This document shows positions 120 to 6,523 of a DNA stretch of 7,738 bases, piece after piece. Made by a program: the position numbers and the translations under genes. The notes under the pieces are model-generated. The model saw nothing but the letters and a program-made list of their open reading frames with translations, was not told where the DNA came from and did not search any database. The first letter of the stretch is position 1. Each line of letters begins with the position of its first letter. Source of the DNA: a virus (taxonomy: Duplodnaviria > Heunggongvirae > Uroviricota > Caudoviricetes); IMG/VR virus record IMGVR_UViG_2802429219_000018, one strand, 5' to 3'.

Positions 120-470
120 CCAGCTCAGTCTCAAAACGTGGGCATGTTGTCTCAAAATGCCTGCAAGTTGTCTCATTAAAAACAATAAATATTATTAAAT
201 AACATATAGATATATATTTTTGAGACAACCGAGACAACTGAGACAACCTAAACGATGTATTATGTGAGAGTATTTACAGCCATCAGATAGATTCCCAAAA
301 TTACTTCTATATATATACAGAATGTGGTTGTCTCAGTTGGTTCATTGTCTCAATAGGCAAAATATTGTTAAGTATCAACGCGTTATCAATAATAAGCGAG
401 ACAACCTAGTCAAAAATTGAGACAACTACCCCAAAAAATGAGACAACCACGCTAAGTTAGACGATACCTA
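120..470. repeat. Iteron cluster, read as a crr/ori-like replication origin downstream of the replication gene. Nine perfect and one 7/8 copy of the octamer GAGACAAC (usually TGAGACAAC) occur in both orientations, at minus 146-153, 167-174, 327-334 and 344-351 (7/8), and at plus 222-229, 231-238, 240-247, 398-405, 419-426 and 440-447.
   Basis: Read directly from the sequence. Three copies are tandem at 9-bp spacing (222-247). Three plus-strand copies and two minus-strand copies sit at exactly 21-bp phasing. The cluster flanks AT-rich tracts at 176-220 and 296-320, which could serve as a DNA-unwinding element. The position, immediately 3' of the alpha-like replication gene, matches where P4 carries its crr. 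Confidence 0.7.
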
Positions 471-3108: not shown

Positions 3109-3469
3109 GGTTCACCCCCCCCTGAATGACCTGATAACCGCAACTGGTCAGCAATTCGATAAATTCCGGCAGTGTGCCGAAACAGCAATCATCACGCAGC
3201 CGTTCGCGGGATACCTCGACGCCGTTTTCGTAGTGACTCACCATGCGTCCGGTAAAATGCAGATCATCATCGTGATGGCACGTTAACGGCTTAATCAGTC
3301 GCGCACGTTCCGCCAGTTCCAGCAATGCTTCAACGCTTCCGGCAATTGCACCATCCGGCAGGTGGTAATTACGCACTATGCGCCCGTTCTCCACATTGAC
3401 CAGCAACTGCCCGGTAAATTTCTCGTCAAACTGAATGCTGTTAAGGTCAGAAATTGACAGGTTATGCAT
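3101..3469 (-). CDS. Hypothetical 122-aa protein made of two tandem copies of the ~45-aa FTG module (F18-T19-G20...IKP60 and F72-T73-G74...).
   Basis: Its ATG overlaps the upstream gene's stop (ATGCATAA). The internal duplication is visible in the translation. Confidence 0.65.
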   Translation of the reverse strand: MHNLSISDLNSIQFDEKFTGQLLVNVENGRIVRNYHLPDGAIAGSVEALLELAERARLIKPLTCHHDDDLHFTGRMVSHYENGVEVSRERLRDDCCFGTLPEFIELLTSCGYQVIQGGVNHG

Positions 3470-3665
3470 GGTGCACCTCCTGGCGAATACGGGCAGCGAA
3501 TACCATCACGCAGCCATCAGGAGATTGCTGACGCGCTTCCTGTTCGCTGATGGCCTCGATGTGAATTACGCGCGGTTGTGCCGTACTCAGGGCGATAAAA
3601 CGCCAGATATATTTATTCAGGTTGTGCGAGTCCCGCCCTTGCGGGTGTGTGGTATGATTTCTCAT
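3462..3665 (-). CDS. 67-aa small protein (MRNHTTHPQGRDSHNLNKYIWRF...). It is the first gene after the leftward promoter, the position P4 kil occupies. By recalled family pattern it resembles the Icd-like host cell division inhibitor small proteins of P4-like elements.
   Basis: This is the C-terminal portion of the 331-aa track ORF. The rest of that ORF runs antisense through the operator/promoter region and the RHH gene, so it is not credible as coding. The internal ATG at 3665 has a GAGGT SD 6-7 nt upstream. The family assignment is from memory of similar annotations and is not verified. Confidence 0.55.
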   Translation of the reverse strand: MRNHTTHPQGRDSHNLNKYIWRFIALSTAQPRVIHIEAISEQEARQQSPDGCVMVFAARIRQEVHHA

Positions 3666-3757
3666 AGCTACCTCGATACTGTTGCTATCGTTGGTGGTTA
3701 GAAGCCCGGTTAGTGTTAGCGCACTGCCGGGTTTCGTCGTTTTTATGAATCGATCAT

Positions 3758-3870
3758 TGTGAGATACATAGTCATCACAATGTGAGATATACATTATATT
3801 GTGGTGATATACATTGCAAGTGTTTTTATATCTCACTTTTGTGTATAGTGATATACACATAACTAATTGG
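3758..3870. promoter_or_regulatory. Divergent promoter/operator region carrying five copies of a GTGAGATATACAT-like motif, at 3758-3769, 3781-3794, 3804-3814, 3827-3836 (reverse) and 3848-3860. Candidate leftward promoter: -10 TATAAT at 3798-3793 and -35 TTGCAA at 3819-3814, with a 15-nt spacer. Candidate rightward promoter: -35 TTGTGT at 3839-3844 and -10 ACTAAT at 3862-3867.
   Basis: The repeats are read directly. The promoter hexamers were matched by eye. The spacer is suboptimal on the leftward side and the hexamers are weak on the rightward side. The operators overlap both candidate promoters. Confidence 0.5.
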
Positions 3871-3879
3871 TGATTAACT

Positions 3880-4182
3880 ATGTCTGTATACAAAAATGCA
3901 AAATCGCAAATGACAACGATCAGGGTTCCCCACGATGTTATGGAGGGTATGGAATCCGTAAAACTGGACGGCGAAAGCAACGCCGGATTCATAGTAACCG
4001 CCATGCGTGGTGAGATCGCCCGCCGCCAGGCAGAAGGAAGAGGAGAAAATCCCCTGGTTTCTTCGCTCGATGCACTGGCGCAGGTGGAAAAAATCGGAGT
4101 CAAAGCAGCCGAGGAGATCGGGCAGCTCGTCACCGTCGCGCGTGAAGAACTCCAGCGCCGCAAGGCCAAAGAACAGGAGTAG
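3880..4182 (+). CDS. 100-aa ribbon-helix-helix-like transcriptional regulator, a candidate immunity repressor. The N-terminus reads TTIRVPHDVMEGMESV...NAGFIVTAMRGEIARRQ, a beta-strand followed by two helices. The C-terminal tail is charged and coiled-coil-like.
   Basis: It is the only credible plus-strand gene. A GGTGA SD lies 6 nt before the ATG. The N-terminal pattern matches the Arc/MetJ/CopG RHH fold by eye. The gene sits immediately beside an array of tandem operator repeats, which is typical for RHH repressors. Confidence 0.65.
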   Translation: MSVYKNAKSQMTTIRVPHDVMEGMESVKLDGESNAGFIVTAMRGEIARRQAEGRGENPLVSSLDALAQVEKIGVKAAEEIGQLVTVAREELQRRKAKEQE

Positions 4183-4401
4183 TTGATCAGCACCGGGCAA
4201 CCAGAAAAAATCGTATCAGTCGCGCTACCAGCAAAATTTTTTGCTTTCCGGACAGCGTGGCCAACGGCATTTTGCAGCAAAATATTCTGCATTTCTGGCG
4301 TGCTGTAGTAACGGTGATCAGCGCCTTCACATTGAACGAACTTGTCGCTAAAATTCACCCATATAGCAAACATCGCGGTGCTACAGGTAATTCGTTCACA
4401 A

Positions 4402-4434
4402 AGGCGCTCCGGCAACGGGGCGCTTTCTCTTTTT
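4402..4434 (+). terminator. Intrinsic terminator. Stem GCGCTCCG (4404-4411), loop GCAA, stem CGGGGCGC (4416-4423), then TTTCTCTTTTT.
   Basis: An 8-bp GC-rich stem with one G-U pair, followed by a T-run on the plus strand. On the minus strand the same stem is followed only by CUUUGUG, which would make a weaker terminator for the antirepressor transcript. Confidence 0.55.
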
Positions 4435-4449
4435 GTAACGGTCAGAGCG

Positions 4450-5250
4450 TTACACATGGCTGTTTTCCTCCATGCGACGGGCTAACCAACGCTGCGAAAG
4501 ACGAATTAATTCAGCTTTCCGCTGGTGGTAGTCCTGGCCTAACTCAATCAGCGTGATATTGCTCTGCTCAAGGTAAGAAAGGTGCTCAAGCTGCAATGTG
4601 CTCATGTGGTCGCGTGGTTCGCCTGTGATGTCGTTCGCCTGCGCCCACTGTTTTGCAGTCATGCCACCCAGCACGATACGCGCCAGCATGTTCGCTTCCG
4701 TGGTGTAGTGGTGCTGGAGTGTGTTTTTACCCAGTTCAGCCCGGTACGCCTCCAGCGCGGCACACATTGGCTTAAAGTAGCTGGCAACTGTGATACGGGC
4801 TTTCAGTTCCCGGCGTAACGCTGCGGAACGCACTGGCGCTACCTTGTGTAGCTCCTCCTCGCATTTGATGAAGTACTGACGAACGGCGCGGCCCTGTTCG
4901 GTGCGTTCGACCATCGCCAGTTCTTTCGCCATGTTGATAGTGCTCAGGTAGTCGTGCTCTATACGTTGGCGAGATTTTGCGCTCACCGGATTGGGGGAGG
5001 TCAAATTTTCTACGAATTCAAAATCCACGCCCTTTTTAAATCCGTACTCATCAATGCGTCCTTTAATCCAGGTTGTGAAATCACGGCCTACCCCGAGCGC
5101 CTTATGCAACGCTCTGGCGCTAACAATATTGGTTTCACGCCCGCCAATAACGCCGGAAATAACCGGGATAATTTCGCCAAAATTTTGCAGATTCTGGTTT
5201 TCAGGCCGAACGAAGCCCTGCCCCTGTACGGGCGTTTTTGGAAATTTCAT
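4450..5250 (-). CDS. AntA/AntB-domain phage antirepressor-like protein, 266 aa.
   Basis: The N-terminal half (ARALHKALGVGRDFTTWIKGRIDEYGF...HDYLSTINMAKELAMVERTEQGRAVRQYFIKCEE) matches the AntA/AntB antirepressor N-domain pattern as I recall it. It is a clean ORF with an ATG start. Confidence 0.8.
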   Translation of the reverse strand: MKFPKTPVQGQGFVRPENQNLQNFGEIIPVISGVIGGRETNIVSARALHKALGVGRDFTTWIKGRIDEYGFKKGVDFEFVENLTSPNPVSAKSRQRIEHDYLSTINMAKELAMVERTEQGRAVRQYFIKCEEELHKVAPVRSAALRRELKARITVASYFKPMCAALEAYRAELGKNTLQHHYTTEANMLARIVLGGMTAKQWAQANDITGEPRDHMSTLQLEHLSYLEQSNITLIELGQDYHQRKAELIRLSQRWLARRMEENSHV

Positions 5251-5327: not shown

Positions 5328-5525
5328 TCAGGTAGCTGTTCCGCGTGATTCCGCAATACGCTGATTAATCCACTCGTCAATTTCACTCTCAACGAAAGCA
5401 ATCGCTCGCGAGCCAATTTTTACAGGTTTAGGAAAACGCCCTTGGGCAATGAGTTTATAGATCCATGCCCTGCCATAGCCTGTACGGCGCATGGTTTCTG
5501 GCATACGAATTAAAGATTGTGACAT
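5328..5525 (-). CDS. AlpA/Vis-family small DNA-binding regulator of the excisionase/transcriptional-regulator type, 65 aa. It uses the internal ATG of the 88-aa track ORF.
   Basis: It carries the family motif RTGYGRAWIYKLIAQGRFPKPVKIGSRAIAFVESEIDEW. The ATG at 5525 has a GGGAGA SD 8 nt upstream. The longer 88-aa form would have to start inside the palindromic operator region. Confidence 0.8.
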   Translation of the reverse strand: MSQSLIRMPETMRRTGYGRAWIYKLIAQGRFPKPVKIGSRAIAFVESEIDEWINQRIAESRGTAT

Positions 5526-5639: not shown

Positions 5640-6395
5640 CTACGATTTAATTGATTTATTGGCTTCAGCAAACTTTGCTTCCAGCGTTCTTGAACTCATC
5701 CCCGGCTTACCTTCAAAATGTCCCAATAAATTACTAATAATAGAGCTTTGATTTTCGAATACAGATTGCTTAATACCAGCAGGTGAACGCCCTAACATTA
5801 GAAAAAGCAACCCTCCAATAATGTTTAAATATGTTGTTTCAGAACGTTGGTCAATGTTTTGCACGGAGTTATCAACCATTCGTCGTAGTGAATCACGTTC
5901 CCCTTGTAATTCGGAAATTTCATTTTTCTGCTGTTGGAAAGTCTTCATAGCATTATCTAAGCGAATATTAAGACGTTTGTTTTCAGCCTGAAGAGTTTGA
6001 TATGCCTCGACTGTAATTCCAGCATGTAACTGCTGCTCAACAGCATCAAAAAGGAAAGCTGGTTTTTGGTTGGGATAGTTTTTTGACATCCATGATTTCA
6101 GATCGGAATGGCGGACGGTTAAACGGTGCTTAGCAACCTGTTCTCCAGGTTGAACAGTTTTACCATCACGGCCATAAGGAATTTCACAATTATGGATTGC
6201 ATCTAAAATTTTCTCAGCATTAACACGCAAGCAAGGCCATTGAGGGAACATTCCAACGCTAGGTAAAACTCCATCTCCCACTCGCTCCAATATTAAAACT
6301 TCATGAGCAATTAAATTACACCAACGTAGCGCCGCTTCAATTGGAGTGTAATATGCCTTTTCAAGAGAACTACAGCTTTTTGAATTGTAAGTCAC
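5640..6395 (-). CDS. Hypothetical 251-aa cargo protein. It has an N-terminal globular domain, a central coiled-coil-like segment (QTLQAENKRLNIRLDNAMKTFQQQKNEISELQGERDSLRR) and a hydrophobic stretch (YLNIIGGLLFLMLG) that could be a transmembrane or amphipathic helix.
   Basis: It starts on GTG with a GAGGT SD 8 nt upstream and has no internal ATG nearby. The gene is visibly AT-richer than the flanking int and alpA-side genes. Confidence 0.7.
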   Translation of the reverse strand: MTYNSKSCSSLEKAYYTPIEAALRWCNLIAHEVLILERVGDGVLPSVGMFPQWPCLRVNAEKILDAIHNCEIPYGRDGKTVQPGEQVAKHRLTVRHSDLKSWMSKNYPNQKPAFLFDAVEQQLHAGITVEAYQTLQAENKRLNIRLDNAMKTFQQQKNEISELQGERDSLRRMVDNSVQNIDQRSETTYLNIIGGLLFLMLGRSPAGIKQSVFENQSSIISNLLGHFEGKPGMSSRTLEAKFAEANKSIKS

Positions 6396-6523
6396 TCTGT
6401 GCTACCTCGCACCCTCTGTAAAAGTGGCTGTGCCAGCCCGCAGAGGTGTACGGGTTTTCAGGAGCGACCCTAGACACAGCCTTTTCTTAATCGCTCAAAG
6501 TCTACTACTGTATACTCAACCAG

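What the first reader, a model, noticed from the sequence alone, without database searches (positions are those of the whole stretch)
3758..5250. Protein-based immunity/derepression module (RHH repressor, five-operator array, AntA antirepressor) where P4 carries its RNA immunity
In P4 the region between vis and kil/alpha holds P_LE and the cI immunity RNA. Here that slot is taken by three things. First, a divergent promoter region with five copies of a GTGAGATATACAT-like motif. Second, a rightward 100-aa RHH-like regulator. Third, a convergent AntA-domain antirepressor. The two divergent promoters lie within the operator array, so the RHH protein could autoregulate and also repress the leftward kil-to-alpha replication operon. 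Satellites need to derepress their helper (P4 epsilon binds the P2 C repressor). An AntA-type antirepressor may therefore be this element's helper-derepression or self-derepression factor. Together this looks like a lineage of P4-like satellites with a different lysogeny switch.
Basis: partly seen in the sequence, partly recalled or inferred. Interest (0 to 1): 0.65.

Follow-up and report, generated by a model that had tools for sequence, protein, structure and literature searches.

The report
Satellite switch: RHH repressor plus antisense RNA
This is the control region of a phage-satellite island of the PICI type (not P4), where a small DNA-binding repressor with five operator sites and a previously unnoticed SymR-like antisense RNA probably keep the island's replication genes silent, while the "antirepressor" gene is optional cargo.

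Summary
The sequence features are real. Five GTGAGATAYAC-like sites lie 22-23 bp apart (3759-3858). A 100-aa ORF and a convergent AntA-domain ORF are present.

- **Element type:** it is a Gram-negative PICI of the EcCIMP1 type (int, alpA, DUF927 primase, iteron ori), not a P4-type satellite.
- **Repressor:** the 100-aa protein belongs to the YlcI/YnfO family and has an RHH-like N-domain. Across 22 YlcI-bearing loci from about 10 genera, the repeat sequence tracks the protein's beta-strand residues and nothing else. This is strong comparative evidence that the protein binds the array, which overlaps two divergent promoters.
- **RNA:** P4's C4/CI RNA is absent, but RNA control is not. A conserved, structured ~80-nt plus-strand RNA (3664-3746) lies antisense to the ribosome-binding site and start codon of the Icd/Kil-like first gene. 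In 25 sequences, 95.8% of pair positions are paired and 15 of 23 pairs show compensatory changes. It matches SymR in both search directions.
- **AntA:** it sits in a variable cargo slot behind alpA and is absent from most related loci, so it is not an integral part of the switch.

No expression or binding data exist. I rate this a new variant of a known kind, of moderate interest.

The parts
3462..3665 (-). Icd/Kil-like 67-aa first gene of the leftward (replication) operon. Downstream genes have overlapping or closely abutting stops and starts down to the DUF927 primase/helicase (478-2616).
   Evidence: NCBIfam phage_ICD_like, 68.4 bits against a cutoff of 25. phrog_6196. ORF map. P4 kil occupies the same position and shares the THP[EK]F N-terminal motif (read by eye).
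3650..3658 (+). Predicted extended -10 promoter (TGgTATGAT) of the antisense RNA, embedded in codons 3-5 of the icd-like gene.
   Evidence: Read from the sequence. A TAnnnT hexamer lies 7 nt upstream of a purine next to the CAT of the start codon in all 17 aligned loci. K-12 symR has the same geometry (TAGAAT, 7 nt, then the start). This is a prediction, and no -35 was found.
3664..3746 (+). SymR-like cis-antisense RNA of about 80 nt. Hairpin 1 is at 3673-3690, with the anti-SD CCUC just 5' of it. Then comes the linker UGGUUAGA. Hairpin 2 is at 3700-3734 with loop GUGUUAGCGCAC. A U-rich tail follows.
   Evidence: Rfam symR scores 32.9 bits, E=0.003, below the gathering score of 61. The same hit occurs at the same place in L003, L004, L005 and L013. 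MFE is -37.2 kcal/mol, z = -5.6. RNAalifold and pair counts give 95.1% paired with 13 of 23 pairs compensatory. In 25 sequences this rises to 95.8% and 15 of 23. 47 G.U cells favour the + strand (95.1% against 83.6%). The self-built model R1 finds it in every cassette locus and in K-12 symR.
3759..3858 (.). Operator array O1-O5: 3759-3769, 3782-3792, 3804-3814, 3826-3836 (inverted) and 3848-3858. The period is 22-23 bp.
   Evidence: The same five positions (about -121, -98, -76, -53 and -32 from the RHH start codon) are occupied in other loci by lineage-specific motifs that track the RHH beta-strand.
3791..3819 (-). Predicted leftward promoter P_L: -35 TTGCAA (3819-3814), 17-nt spacer, -10 TAATGT (3796-3791). 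A perfect TATAAT at 3798-3793 with a 15-nt spacer is the alternative. O2 and O3 overlap it.
   Evidence: Inferred by homology. TTGACG-17-TAACAT is found by the scan at the equivalent position in L004 and L023. The window's own version fails the scan.
3844..3849 (+). Predicted -10 (TATAGT) of the rightward promoter P_R for the RHH gene, flanked by O4 and O5.
   Evidence: Read from the sequence. TATAAT or TATACT lies at the same position in the other loci. No good -35 was found, and the site is not detected by the scan.
3880..4182 (+). YlcI/YnfO-family protein of 100 aa: an RHH-like N-domain (residues ~10-51) plus a long C-terminal helix (58-99). Proposed repressor of P_L and autoregulator of P_R.
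4183..4449 (.). Conserved spacer between the RHH gene and antA. It contains a promoter-like site (4326-4354, +) and a hairpin at 4401-4426 with a T-run, which could terminate the RHH transcript and, weakly, the alpA-antA transcript.
   Evidence: Conserved in L001 and L002 whichever RHH cassette is present. Function unknown.
4450..5250 (-). AntA/AntB-family protein of 266 aa. It lies downstream of alpA and is co-directional with it. It occupies a variable cargo slot and is not part of the conserved cassette.
5328..5525 (-). AlpA-family regulator (context). It is the known helper-induced activator of Gram-negative PICIs and lies upstream of antA on the same strand.
   Evidence: Pfam Phage_AlpA, 70.5 bits. 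Role taken from PMC6092414 and PMC11773190.

Best explanation
**What it is.** The region is the regulatory core of a Gram-negative phage-inducible chromosomal island (PICI) of the EcCIMP1 type. It holds a portable cassette with two layers of repression over the island's leftward operon. That operon runs from the Icd/Kil-like gene through small ORFs and DUF4222 to the DUF927 primase/helicase.

**Layer 1 (inferred from comparative data).** The YlcI/YnfO-family protein is a ribbon-helix-helix repressor. Its beta-strand residues read five operator sites set two helical turns apart. Its long C-terminal helix probably links dimers so that they bind cooperatively. O2 and O3 cover the leftward promoter. 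O4 and O5 flank the protein's own promoter. The protein therefore shuts off the replication operon and autoregulates.

**Layer 2 (structure shown, expression inferred).** A constitutive ~80-nt antisense RNA starts at the icd-like start codon and ends in a conserved hairpin. It pairs with the ribosome-binding site and 5' leader of any leaky leftward transcript. Like SymR on symE, it blocks translation of the toxic first gene. Because the downstream genes have overlapping or closely abutting stops and starts, this may also dampen the rest of the operon.

**Induction (speculative).** The helper phage switches on alpA. Transcription then runs alpA, antA and on towards the convergent repressor gene. 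It either reads through into the replication operon and interferes with repressor expression, or delivers a factor that inactivates the repressor.

**AntA.** It is an optional passenger of the alpA transcript. Its target is unknown: a helper repressor as in N15, the island repressor, or phage interference.
For: **Element identity**
- The window carries int, AlpA, DUF4222 and a DUF927 primase.
- Eight exact GAGACAAC iterons and one 1-mismatch copy lie downstream of the primase gene at 146-447.
- The integrase is 97% identical to that of the experimentally mobilised EcCIMP1.
- Relatives lack P4 late genes.

**RHH fold**
- AF2 secondary structure fits the fold.
- UniRef names some homologues Arc-like or CopG.
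- In L002 the slot holds a different 57-aa protein with a sub-threshold Pfam Arc hit and its own GGTAATTACC repeats.

**Operator assignment**
- Five sites sit at conserved positions in the YlcI-bearing loci.
- Identical beta-strands go with identical motifs across genera:
  - QMTTIRVP with GTGAGATAYAC in E. coli and Yersinia.
  - QL[TF]TVRVP with TGTGTTTCA in Xenorhabdus, Photorhabdus, Serratia, E. coli and Citrobacter.
  - QSLTARIP with GTGTAAG in Enterobacter, Klebsiella and Edwardsiella.
  - QQ[IL]NARFP with TGGKATTCA.
- AlpA, integrase, replicase type and first-gene type vary freely within a motif class.
- The leftward promoter is detected between O2 and O3 in L004 and L023.

**Antisense RNA**
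- Reciprocal match to K-12 symR: 26.9 bits, E=4e-4, over the full model and on the annotated symR.
- It is present in all 24 cassette loci and absent from EcCIMP1, which also lacks the RHH.

**Literature**
- SymR overlaps the symE RBS and start codon and blocks translation (PMC4147584).
- AlpA is the helper-induced activator, and a global repressor in Gram-negative PICIs is described as 'unclear' (PMC6092414).
Against: - There are no expression, binding or genetic data for any part.
- No Pfam RHH model reaches threshold. Foldseek found nothing. hhalign to Mnt is in register but not significant. A PDB profile search gave no RHH hit.
- The window's own promoters and the RNA's terminator fail the strict consensus scans. 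The U-run starts about 6 nt after the stem.
- The Rfam symR hits are all far below the gathering score.
- Watson-Crick covariation cannot by itself tell the strands apart. The strand call rests on G.U pairs, the U-rich tail and the SymR analogy.
- The window and the Xenorhabdus class differ at few RHH-domain residues (M11/L11, I14/V14) yet have different motifs. The specificity code is therefore inferred, not understood.
- EcCIMP1 works without the cassette, so it is not universal to PICIs.
- The induction route is guesswork.
Confidence: 0.6

Rival explanations
1. This is a lineage of P4-like satellites in which protein-based immunity (RHH plus operators) has replaced RNA immunity. The AntA protein is the element's helper-derepression or self-derepression factor and so an integral third part of the module.
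For: - The gene order int, alpA/vis, regulatory region, icd/kil-like, primase parallels P4.
- P4's C4-family CI RNA and its a1b1/isrK-like targets are absent here.
- The founding AntA of phage N15 is described as acting against the prophage repressor and is linked to icd (PMC4488713).
- antA lies behind the helper-induced alpA, so it would be made on induction.
Against: - No sid, psu, delta or epsilon genes occur in close relatives. The primase is DUF927 rather than alpha-type. The closest characterised element is the PICI EcCIMP1.
- An antisense RNA is present.
- AntA is absent from 18 of 24 cassette loci, including loci with the same operator class. It is present with an unrelated RHH (L002) and in EcCIMP1, which has no RHH.
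- The AntA folds resemble DNA-binding proteins, and its C-domain matches a defence candidate.
Confidence: 0.12
2. The conserved hairpins act only in the sense (minus-strand) mRNA leader, for example as an RBS-sequestering or stabilising structure or a processing site. In this view no separate antisense RNA is made.
For: - Most conserved pairs are Watson-Crick and so also form on the minus strand (83.6% paired).
- The leader folds better than shuffles (z = -2.9).
- The proposed antisense promoter lacks a -35, and the terminator fails the strict scan.
Against: - 47 G.U cells become A.C mismatches on the minus strand, against only 2 the other way.
- The plus strand folds much better (z = -5.6).
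- A U-rich tail follows hairpin 2 only on the plus strand.
- A -10-like hexamer sits at a fixed distance in all loci.
- There are reciprocal covariance-model matches to the experimentally defined antisense RNA SymR, which has the same geometry.
Confidence: 0.15
3. The repeats are bound by a different protein, such as AlpA, the replication initiator (as iterons) or a host factor. The YlcI-like protein would then have another role.
For: - No binding data exist.
- The window class and the Xenorhabdus class have nearly identical RHH domains but different repeats.
- PICI and P4 replicases do bind short iterons.
Against: - The repeat sequence follows the YlcI beta-strand class across genera. Meanwhile AlpA (undetectable to 77% identity to the window's AlpA within one class), integrase and replicase family (DUF927, D5_N, AAA_25) vary within a class.
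- The ori-type iterons are elsewhere (146-447).
- When the RHH is swapped (L002), the repeats are swapped with it.
Confidence: 0.07
4. The cassette is mainly an addiction or abortive-infection module rather than a life-cycle switch. In this view Icd-like is a toxin, the antisense RNA is its type I antitoxin, and the RHH is a transcriptional brake. Together they stabilise the island or kill infected cells. This is not exclusive of the best explanation.
For: - The geometry is identical to the SymE/SymR type I pair.
- Icd family members inhibit cell division (family annotation).
Against: - The controlled transcript is not a two-gene unit. It is the whole replication operon, with overlapping or closely abutting genes.
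- The cassette always sits between alpA and the replicase genes of satellites.
- No PADLOC hit was found for Icd-like or YlcI.
Confidence: 0.2

Closest known systems
Phage P22 immI region (Mnt and Arc RHH repressors, divergent Pant/Pmnt, sar antisense RNA, Ant antirepressor)
   Same: - A small RHH repressor with a C-terminal oligomerisation helix (like Mnt).
- Operators over divergent promoters.
- An antisense RNA covering the translation start of a gene in the repressed operon.
- An antirepressor-family gene nearby.
   Different: - Here the repressed operon encodes Icd/Kil-like and replication functions, not the antirepressor.
- antA lies outside the operator-controlled units, in the alpA transcript.
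- There are five operators with a 22-bp period instead of one.
- No sequence homology to Mnt or Arc was shown.
- The comparison with P22 rests on my own knowledge, not on a tool result.
SymE/SymR type I toxin-antitoxin pair of E. coli K-12 (Rfam RF01809)
   Same: - The antisense RNA starts within 0-3 nt of the target's start codon, from a -10 embedded in the first codons.
- It has two hairpins, and the anti-SD lies in or next to hairpin 1.
- The linker is UUGUGAUUAG in SymR and UGGUUAGA here.
- The hairpin-2 loop is GUGUUGGCGCAC in SymR and GUGUUAGCGCAC here.
- Covariance-model hits are reciprocal.
   Different: - Scores are far below the family gathering score (30-39 bits against 61).
- The target is an Icd/Kil-like protein heading a replication operon, not SymE.
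- No LexA box was seen. Control is by an RHH operator array instead.
P4 CI / P1 C4 / N15 CA immunity RNAs (Rfam C4 RF01695, c4-a1b1, isrK) upstream of kil/icd
   Same: - The position is the same: the leader of the operon that begins with an Icd/Kil-like gene.
- The logic is the same: an RNA blocks expression of the first gene and so of the operon.
   Different: - C4-type RNAs are cut from the sense transcript and act on repeated target sites. [quoted passage not shown]
- No C4, a1b1 or isrK match at E<=1 in the window or 7 related loci, whereas P4 gives 74.9, 44.1 and 60.8 bits.
Gram-negative PICIs and cf-PICIs (EcCICFT073, EcCIEDL933, EcCIMP1)
   Same: - int, alpA, then a co-directional replication operon and iteron ori.
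- The integrase is 97% identical to EcCIMP1's and uses the same tRNA-Thr site in relative L001.
- AntA, Icd-like, DUF4222 and PerC genes are shared.
- YlcI/YnfO, AntA and Icd are listed as accessory genes of Enterobacter cf-PICIs (PMC13612085).
   Different: - The published model has only the AlpA activator and states that a global repressor is unclear.
- EcCIMP1 itself lacks the RHH cassette and the RNA.
- The papers read here and a full-text search describe no function for YlcI/YnfO, the operator array or the antisense RNA.
SaPI/Gram-positive PICI master repressor Stl/Rpr
   Same: It works alike: a divergently transcribed repressor next to the int side holds the excision-replication operon silent until the helper acts.
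   Different: - Stl proteins are unrelated HTH repressors relieved by binding helper proteins.
- No such interaction is known here, and the fold is RHH.
RHH proteins that bind arrays of repeats (TraM of F-like plasmids, omega of pSM19035, CopG)
   Different: - No detectable sequence homology.
- The biological context differs (conjugation or plasmid copy control).

Membership tests
YlcI/YnfO family (NCBIfam NF041551) | HMM score above the curated cutoff over the N-terminal domain | tested here: met
   71.2 bits against a cutoff of 30, residues 8-49 on profile positions 1-42 of 42. PGAP uses the same name for homologues.
Ribbon-helix-helix (Arc/MetJ/CopG) DNA-binding superfamily | An N-terminal strand-helix-helix unit of about 45 residues | tested here: met
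   [not shown]
Ribbon-helix-helix (Arc/MetJ/CopG) DNA-binding superfamily | Significant sequence or profile match to a curated RHH family | tested here: not met
   No Pfam RHH family at E<=10 apart from weak DUF7557 and PSK_trans_fac hits. hhalign to Mnt gives probability 1%. The PDB profile search gave no RHH hit. Foldseek gave none.
Ribbon-helix-helix (Arc/MetJ/CopG) DNA-binding superfamily | Dimer whose paired beta-strands read repeated DNA sites | tested here: inconclusive
   Not directly testable. Indirect support: the repeat motif co-varies with residues 11 and 13 of the predicted strand across 22 loci.
AntA/AntB antirepressor family (Pfam PF08346) | AntA domain above the gathering score | tested here: met
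   80.7 bits against 27, residues 43-117. Precomputed PF08346 on all 120 listed homologues.
AntA/AntB antirepressor family (Pfam PF08346) | Binds and inactivates a repressor | not testable with these tools
   Only an annotation carried over from N15. The folds resemble DNA-binding proteins.
P4-like satellites | Late/hijacking genes sid, delta, psu and the derepressor epsilon | tested here: not met
   None in the window. None in 12-kb flanks of close relatives L001 and L002, which carry ProQ/FinO, PerC, DUF2213 and transglycosylase genes instead.
P4-like satellites | C4-family CI immunity RNA with its target sites in the left-operon leader | tested here: not met
   P4 scores 74.9 bits for C4, 60.8 for isrK and 44.1 for c4-a1b1. 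The window and 7 loci give none at E<=1.
P4-like satellites | Integrase, Vis/AlpA and a primase-helicase in the same order | tested here: met
   This feature is shared with PICIs and does not discriminate. The primase is DUF927 type.
Gram-negative PICI | int, alpA, then a co-directional pri/rep operon followed by an iteron ori, with no phage lysis or tail genes | tested here: met
   Relatives are islands of roughly 13-16 kb at tRNA-Thr or next to abgR. The integrase is 97% identical to that of the validated EcCIMP1.
Gram-negative PICI | Induced and packaged by a helper phage | not testable with these tools
   Shown only for EcCIMP1 and EcCICFT073 in the literature.
SymR RNA (Rfam RF01809) | Covariance-model score at or above the gathering score | tested here: not met
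   32.9 bits in the window and 29.9-38.7 in four loci, against 61.
SymR RNA (Rfam RF01809) | Cis-antisense geometry: starts at the target's start codon and covers the RBS, with two hairpins | tested here: met
   The reverse search with R1 hits the annotated symR over the full model (26.9 bits, E=4e-4).

The most novel reading that the evidence does not exclude
The RHH gene, its five-operator array and the SymR-like antisense RNA together form a portable two-layer immunity cassette. This would be the missing repressor system of many Gram-negative PICIs and cf-PICIs. Its exchangeable RHH/operator specificities would define satellite immunity groups. Helper-induced AlpA transcription would override it through convergent read-through. 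E. coli K-12 symE/symR would be a domesticated relative of the RNA half of the cassette.
Probability: 0.3. Interest if true: 0.75.

Novelty: new variant of a known kind. Interest (0 to 1): 0.55.

Why it matters
The field's model for Gram-negative PICIs has an activator (AlpA) but no known repressor. Fillol-Salom et al. 2018 say outright that a global repressor is unclear.

This cassette occurs at least in part in about a fifth of complete E. coli genomes (1175 of 5426; the class-B cassette query matches 1088). It is also found in Yersinia, Klebsiella, Enterobacter, Citrobacter, Serratia, Edwardsiella, Xenorhabdus and Photorhabdus. It offers a concrete candidate for how these islands stay silent.

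It gives a first functional hypothesis for the uncharacterised YlcI/YnfO family, including the K-12 prophage genes ylcI and ynfO. It provides a natural series of RHH-operator specificity pairs that could be used to work out RHH recognition rules.

It also links the orphan SymE/SymR antisense system to mobile-element regulation. All of these points can be tested with simple reporter, EMSA and Northern experiments.

Tried and rejected
- **Foldseek of the YlcI monomer against the PDB.** No match below E=6. A small domain joined to a long helix suits the method poorly.
- **PDB sequence-profile search with the YlcI alignment.** Only spurious hits such as Hef HhH. phmmer of AntA gave only apolipoprotein noise.
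- **hhalign of the YlcI profile against Mnt.** It aligns the right segment but is not significant. Against the L002 Arc-like protein only the C-terminal ELQQRG tail aligns.
- **Phage collection search with 3440-4200.** One weak partial hit, so the cassette is not a feature of deposited phage genomes.
- **Literature.**
  - YlcI/YnfO appears only as an annotation label.
  - The HE-PICI paper's 'icd' is isocitrate dehydrogenase, which is irrelevant.
  - No paper links PICIs with RHH proteins or SymR with satellites.
- **P4 membership.** Considered and rejected: the defining genes and RNA are absent.
- **Repeats as replication iterons.** Considered and rejected: the true iterons are at 146-447, and the repeats do not track the replicase type.
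- **AlpA as the repeat binder.** Considered and rejected: AlpA varies within motif classes.
- **Prototype PICIs.** I did not locate EcCICFT073 or EcCIEDL933 in the genome collection, so whether those prototypes carry the cassette is unknown.


Full report
**Observation**

- The degenerate pattern GTGAKATAYAY matches exactly at 3759, 3782, 3804 and 3848 on the plus strand. Chance expects 0.03 matches.
- A fifth copy, GTGAGATATAA, lies inverted at 3826-3836.
- All five lie within 100 bp with start-to-start spacing of 22-23 bp. The rest of the 7.7-kb window holds only one 2-mismatch match.
- The 100-aa ORF (3880-4182, +) and the 266-aa ORF (4450-5250, -) are convergent. A hairpin with a T-run lies between them at 4401-4426.
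- The 266-aa protein carries a clear Pfam AntA domain (80.7 bits).

**What the element is**

The window reads, on the minus strand:
- integrase
- a 251-aa coiled-coil ORF
- AlpA
- AntA
- [the plus-strand 100-aa gene]
- a 67-aa Icd-like protein
- two phrog_340 proteins
- DUF4222
- a 712-aa DUF927 primase/helicase

. Eight exact GAGACAAC iterons and one 1-mismatch copy then follow at 146-447.

Close relatives in complete E. coli genomes are islands of roughly 13-16 kb at tRNA-Thr/proA or next to abgR. They continue with ProQ/FinO-family, PerC-family, DUF2213 and transglycosylase genes and have no sid, psu or delta.

The integrase is 97% identical to that of EcCIMP1. EcCIMP1 is an experimentally mobilised PICI at the same tRNA-Thr site, and it also carries AlpA, AntA, Icd-like, DUF927 primase and PerC genes. 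A 2026 survey lists 'AntA/AntB, YlcI/YnfO, Icd' as accessory genes of Enterobacter cf-PICIs.

The element is therefore a Gram-negative PICI, not a P4-type satellite. The P4 comparison holds only as an analogy of gene order.

**The 100-aa protein**

- It passes NCBIfam YlcI_YnfO_N (71.2 bits against 30). It has 249 homologues across Enterobacterales, and UniRef names some of them Arc-like or CopG.
- No Pfam RHH model reaches threshold. Foldseek, a PDB profile search and hhalign against Mnt were uninformative.
- An AlphaFold2 model (pLDDT 79) shows an extended N-terminal segment, two helices (18-27 and 34-51) and a long C-terminal helix (58-99).

The fold assignment is reasonable but not proven.

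**The repeats as its operators**

This is the strongest result. I collected 22 loci that encode YlcI homologues, plus one with a different protein in the slot. They come from Escherichia, Yersinia, Klebsiella, Enterobacter, Citrobacter, Serratia, Edwardsiella, Cronobacter, Erwinia, Phytobacter, Xenorhabdus and Photorhabdus.

In every YlcI locus the ~130 bp upstream of the gene holds repeats at conserved positions, about -121, -98, -76, -53 and -32 from the start codon. The sequence of the repeat differs between loci and follows the predicted beta-strand of the protein:

| Beta-strand | Repeat motif | Loci |
|---|---|---|
| QMTTIRVP | GTGAGATAYAC | window, L001, Yersinia L025 |
| QL[TF]TVRVP | TGTGTTTCA | Xenorhabdus, Photorhabdus, Serratia, E. 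coli L023, Citrobacter L024 |
| QSLTARIP | GTGTAAG(W)AAC | Enterobacter L003, Klebsiella L015, Edwardsiella L026 |
| Q[LV]KN[IV]RIP | GGTGTGTATTTA | L009, L012 |
| QQ[IL]NARFP | TGGKATTCA | L013, L019, L020 |
| KQISIRIP | TGAATCACA | L027 |

The classes for L023, L024, L025 and L026 were predicted from the protein before their DNA was read.

Within one motif class the AlpA, integrase, replicase family and first-gene type vary widely. None of those proteins can therefore be the determinant.

In L002 the slot holds an unrelated 57-aa protein. It has a sub-threshold Pfam Arc hit and its own GGTAATTACC palindromes.

The leftward promoter TTGACG-17-TAACAT is picked up by the scan between the second and third sites in L004 and L023. 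The window's equivalent (TTGCAA-17-TAATGT, 3819-3791) is weaker and fails the scan. A TATAAT, TATAGT or TATACT -10 for the repressor gene sits between the fourth and fifth sites.

I infer that the protein represses the leftward operon and autoregulates. I also infer that the 22-bp phasing and the C-terminal helix allow cooperative binding on one face of the DNA.

P4 itself gives strong Rfam hits for its CI RNA (C4, 74.9 bits) and the target motifs (isrK 60.8, c4-a1b1 44.1) between vis and kil. None of these is found in the window or in seven related loci at E<=1.

However, the Rfam SymR model hits the plus strand at 3666-3738 (32.9 bits, E=0.003). It hits the same place in L003, L004, L005 and L013 (29.9-38.7 bits), always below the gathering score of 61.

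The evidence for a structured plus-strand RNA is as follows.
- **Geometry.** The stretch lies antisense to the Shine-Dalgarno sequence and start codon of the Icd-like gene.
- **Structure.** An alignment of 17 loci folds into two hairpins with 23 pairs. Of these, 13 show compensatory changes. 95.1% of cells are paired, against 39-44% when partners are slid, and 0 of 500 shuffles reach any measure.
- **Independent loci.** A covariance model built from that alignment (R1) finds one copy on the same strand in all 24 cassette loci, including seven not used to build it (58-95 bits overall). The 25-sequence alignment gives 95.8% paired and 15 of 23 compensatory pairs.
- **Strand.** 47 cells are G.U pairs that would be A.C on the minus strand, against 2 the other way. 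That is 95.1% against 83.6% paired. The plus strand folds at -37.2 kcal/mol, z = -5.6. A U-rich tail follows hairpin 2 on the plus strand only.
- **Promoter.** A TAnnnT hexamer lies 7 nt upstream of the predicted start in every locus. In the window it has an extended TG (TGgTATGAT, 3650-3658).
- **Link to SymR.** R1 also hits the annotated symR of E. coli K-12 over the full model (26.9 bits, E=4e-4). SymR shares the start-codon geometry, the linker and the loop GUGUUGGCGCAC. SymR is known to overlap the symE RBS and start codon and to block translation (PMC4147584).
- **Linkage to the RHH.** EcCIMP1, which lacks the RHH gene, also lacks the RNA. The two appear to travel as one cassette.

Expression of this RNA is not shown. 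Its promoter has no -35, and its terminator fails the strict scan.

**AntA**

- The gene lies 77 nt downstream of alpA on the same strand, with no intrinsic terminator between them. It would therefore be made when the helper induces alpA.
- The slot between alpA and the RHH gene varies:
  - no detected gene: L008, L013, L015, L017, L029;
  - a small unannotated ORF: L019;
  - AntA: window, L001, L002, L005, L025;
  - AntA plus Bro-N plus another ORF: L026;
  - unrelated ORFs: L023, L024.
- AntA also occurs in EcCIMP1 without any RHH.
- N15 AntA, which gives the family its name, is described as acting against the prophage repressor within an icd-antA-antB operon.

A role against helper repressors therefore remains possible. 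AntA is not an integral part of this switch, and a role as the specific antagonist of the YlcI protein is unlikely.

**Mechanism proposed**

*Shown:*
- the anatomy;
- the conservation of position;
- the protein-motif co-variation;
- the RNA structure and its strand bias;
- the relationship to SymR;
- the absence of C4.

*Inferred:*
- RHH dimers bind O1-O5, repress P_L and autoregulate P_R.
- The antisense RNA blocks translation of the Icd/Kil-like gene from leaky transcripts. Because the downstream genes have overlapping or closely abutting stops and starts, this may also limit the replication operon.

*Speculative:*
- Induction works by AlpA-driven transcription running through antA and the hairpin into the convergent repressor gene and onward. 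This would bypass P_L and interfere with repressor synthesis.

No operator copy lies near alpA or int, so the repressor does not appear to control alpA.

**Comparison and novelty**

Functionally the closest analogue is P22 immI (RHH repressors over divergent promoters, plus the sar antisense RNA), combined with a SymR-type antisense control. Neither the RHH membership by sequence nor SymR membership by score is met, so I describe these as 'works like'.

The cassette is common. Parts of it occur in 1175 of 5426 complete E. coli genomes, and 231 carry at least 80% of this variant. A query spanning the class-B cassette matches 1088 genomes, 265 of them at 80% coverage or more.

The papers read here and the full-text searches describe no function for YlcI/YnfO, no RHH repressor in PICIs and no SymR-like RNA in satellites. 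[quoted passage not shown]

I rate it a new variant of a known kind. Interest is moderate because it gives a directly testable candidate answer to an open question.

Noticed in passing
window 146-447: Eight exact GAGACAAC copies and one 1-mismatch copy, in both orientations, lie just downstream of the DUF927 primase/helicase gene. They are probably the island's replication-origin iterons, analogous to the P4 ori/crr type 1 repeats.
   Followed up: partly
window 6412-6480 (-): The Rfam int-alpA RNA motif (RF02996) scores 49.8 bits, above its gathering score of 35.8. It lies between int and the 251-aa ORF. It is also found in L005 (50.3 bits) and, just below threshold, in L009. Its function is unknown, and it may belong to the alpA induction circuit.
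   Followed up: no
window 4326-4436 (+): A promoter-like site (TTCACA-17-TAAAAT, 10 of 12; TATAAT in L001 and L002) is followed by the 4401-4426 hairpin and a T-run. This could give a ~75-nt plus-strand sRNA opposite the antA 3' end. Its body differs between the window and L002 while its flanks are conserved.
   Followed up: partly
window 5640-6395 (-): A 251-aa ORF with a central coiled coil sits between int and alpA. It has no Pfam, NCBIfam or PADLOC family. It is 100% conserved in L001 and absent or replaced in other loci, so it is probably accessory cargo.
   Followed up: partly
[not shown]
   Followed up: partly
L001 9673-10203 and L002 11072-11602: Related islands encode a ProQ/FinO-family protein just downstream of the primase. 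It could be a dedicated chaperone for the antisense RNA, as FinO is for FinP. This was not tested.
   Followed up: no
L022 2836-2912 (E. coli K-12 symR) and window 3462-3665: K-12 symE/symR shares promoter geometry, linker and loop sequence with the satellite RNA. The N-termini of SymE (MTDTHS) and the Icd-like proteins (xHTxTHP) look alike where the antisense -10 is embedded. This hints at a shared mobile 5' regulatory module.
   Followed up: partly
L020 4429-4508 (+): A second, weaker copy of the antisense-RNA motif (R1, 40.5 bits) lies downstream of the RHH gene in this locus. It may be a remnant of a second cassette.
   Followed up: no
L029 7226-7405 (+): A cf-PICI (with capsid, protease and portal genes) carries a 59-aa YlcI/YnfO protein in the same slot. 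By length it lacks the C-terminal helix. The RHH domain alone may therefore be enough in some cassettes.
   Followed up: no
L012 1907-2049 (+): A full-length isrN Hfq-binding sRNA (RF01396, 152.7 bits) lies about 1 kb downstream of the RHH gene in this island.
   Followed up: no
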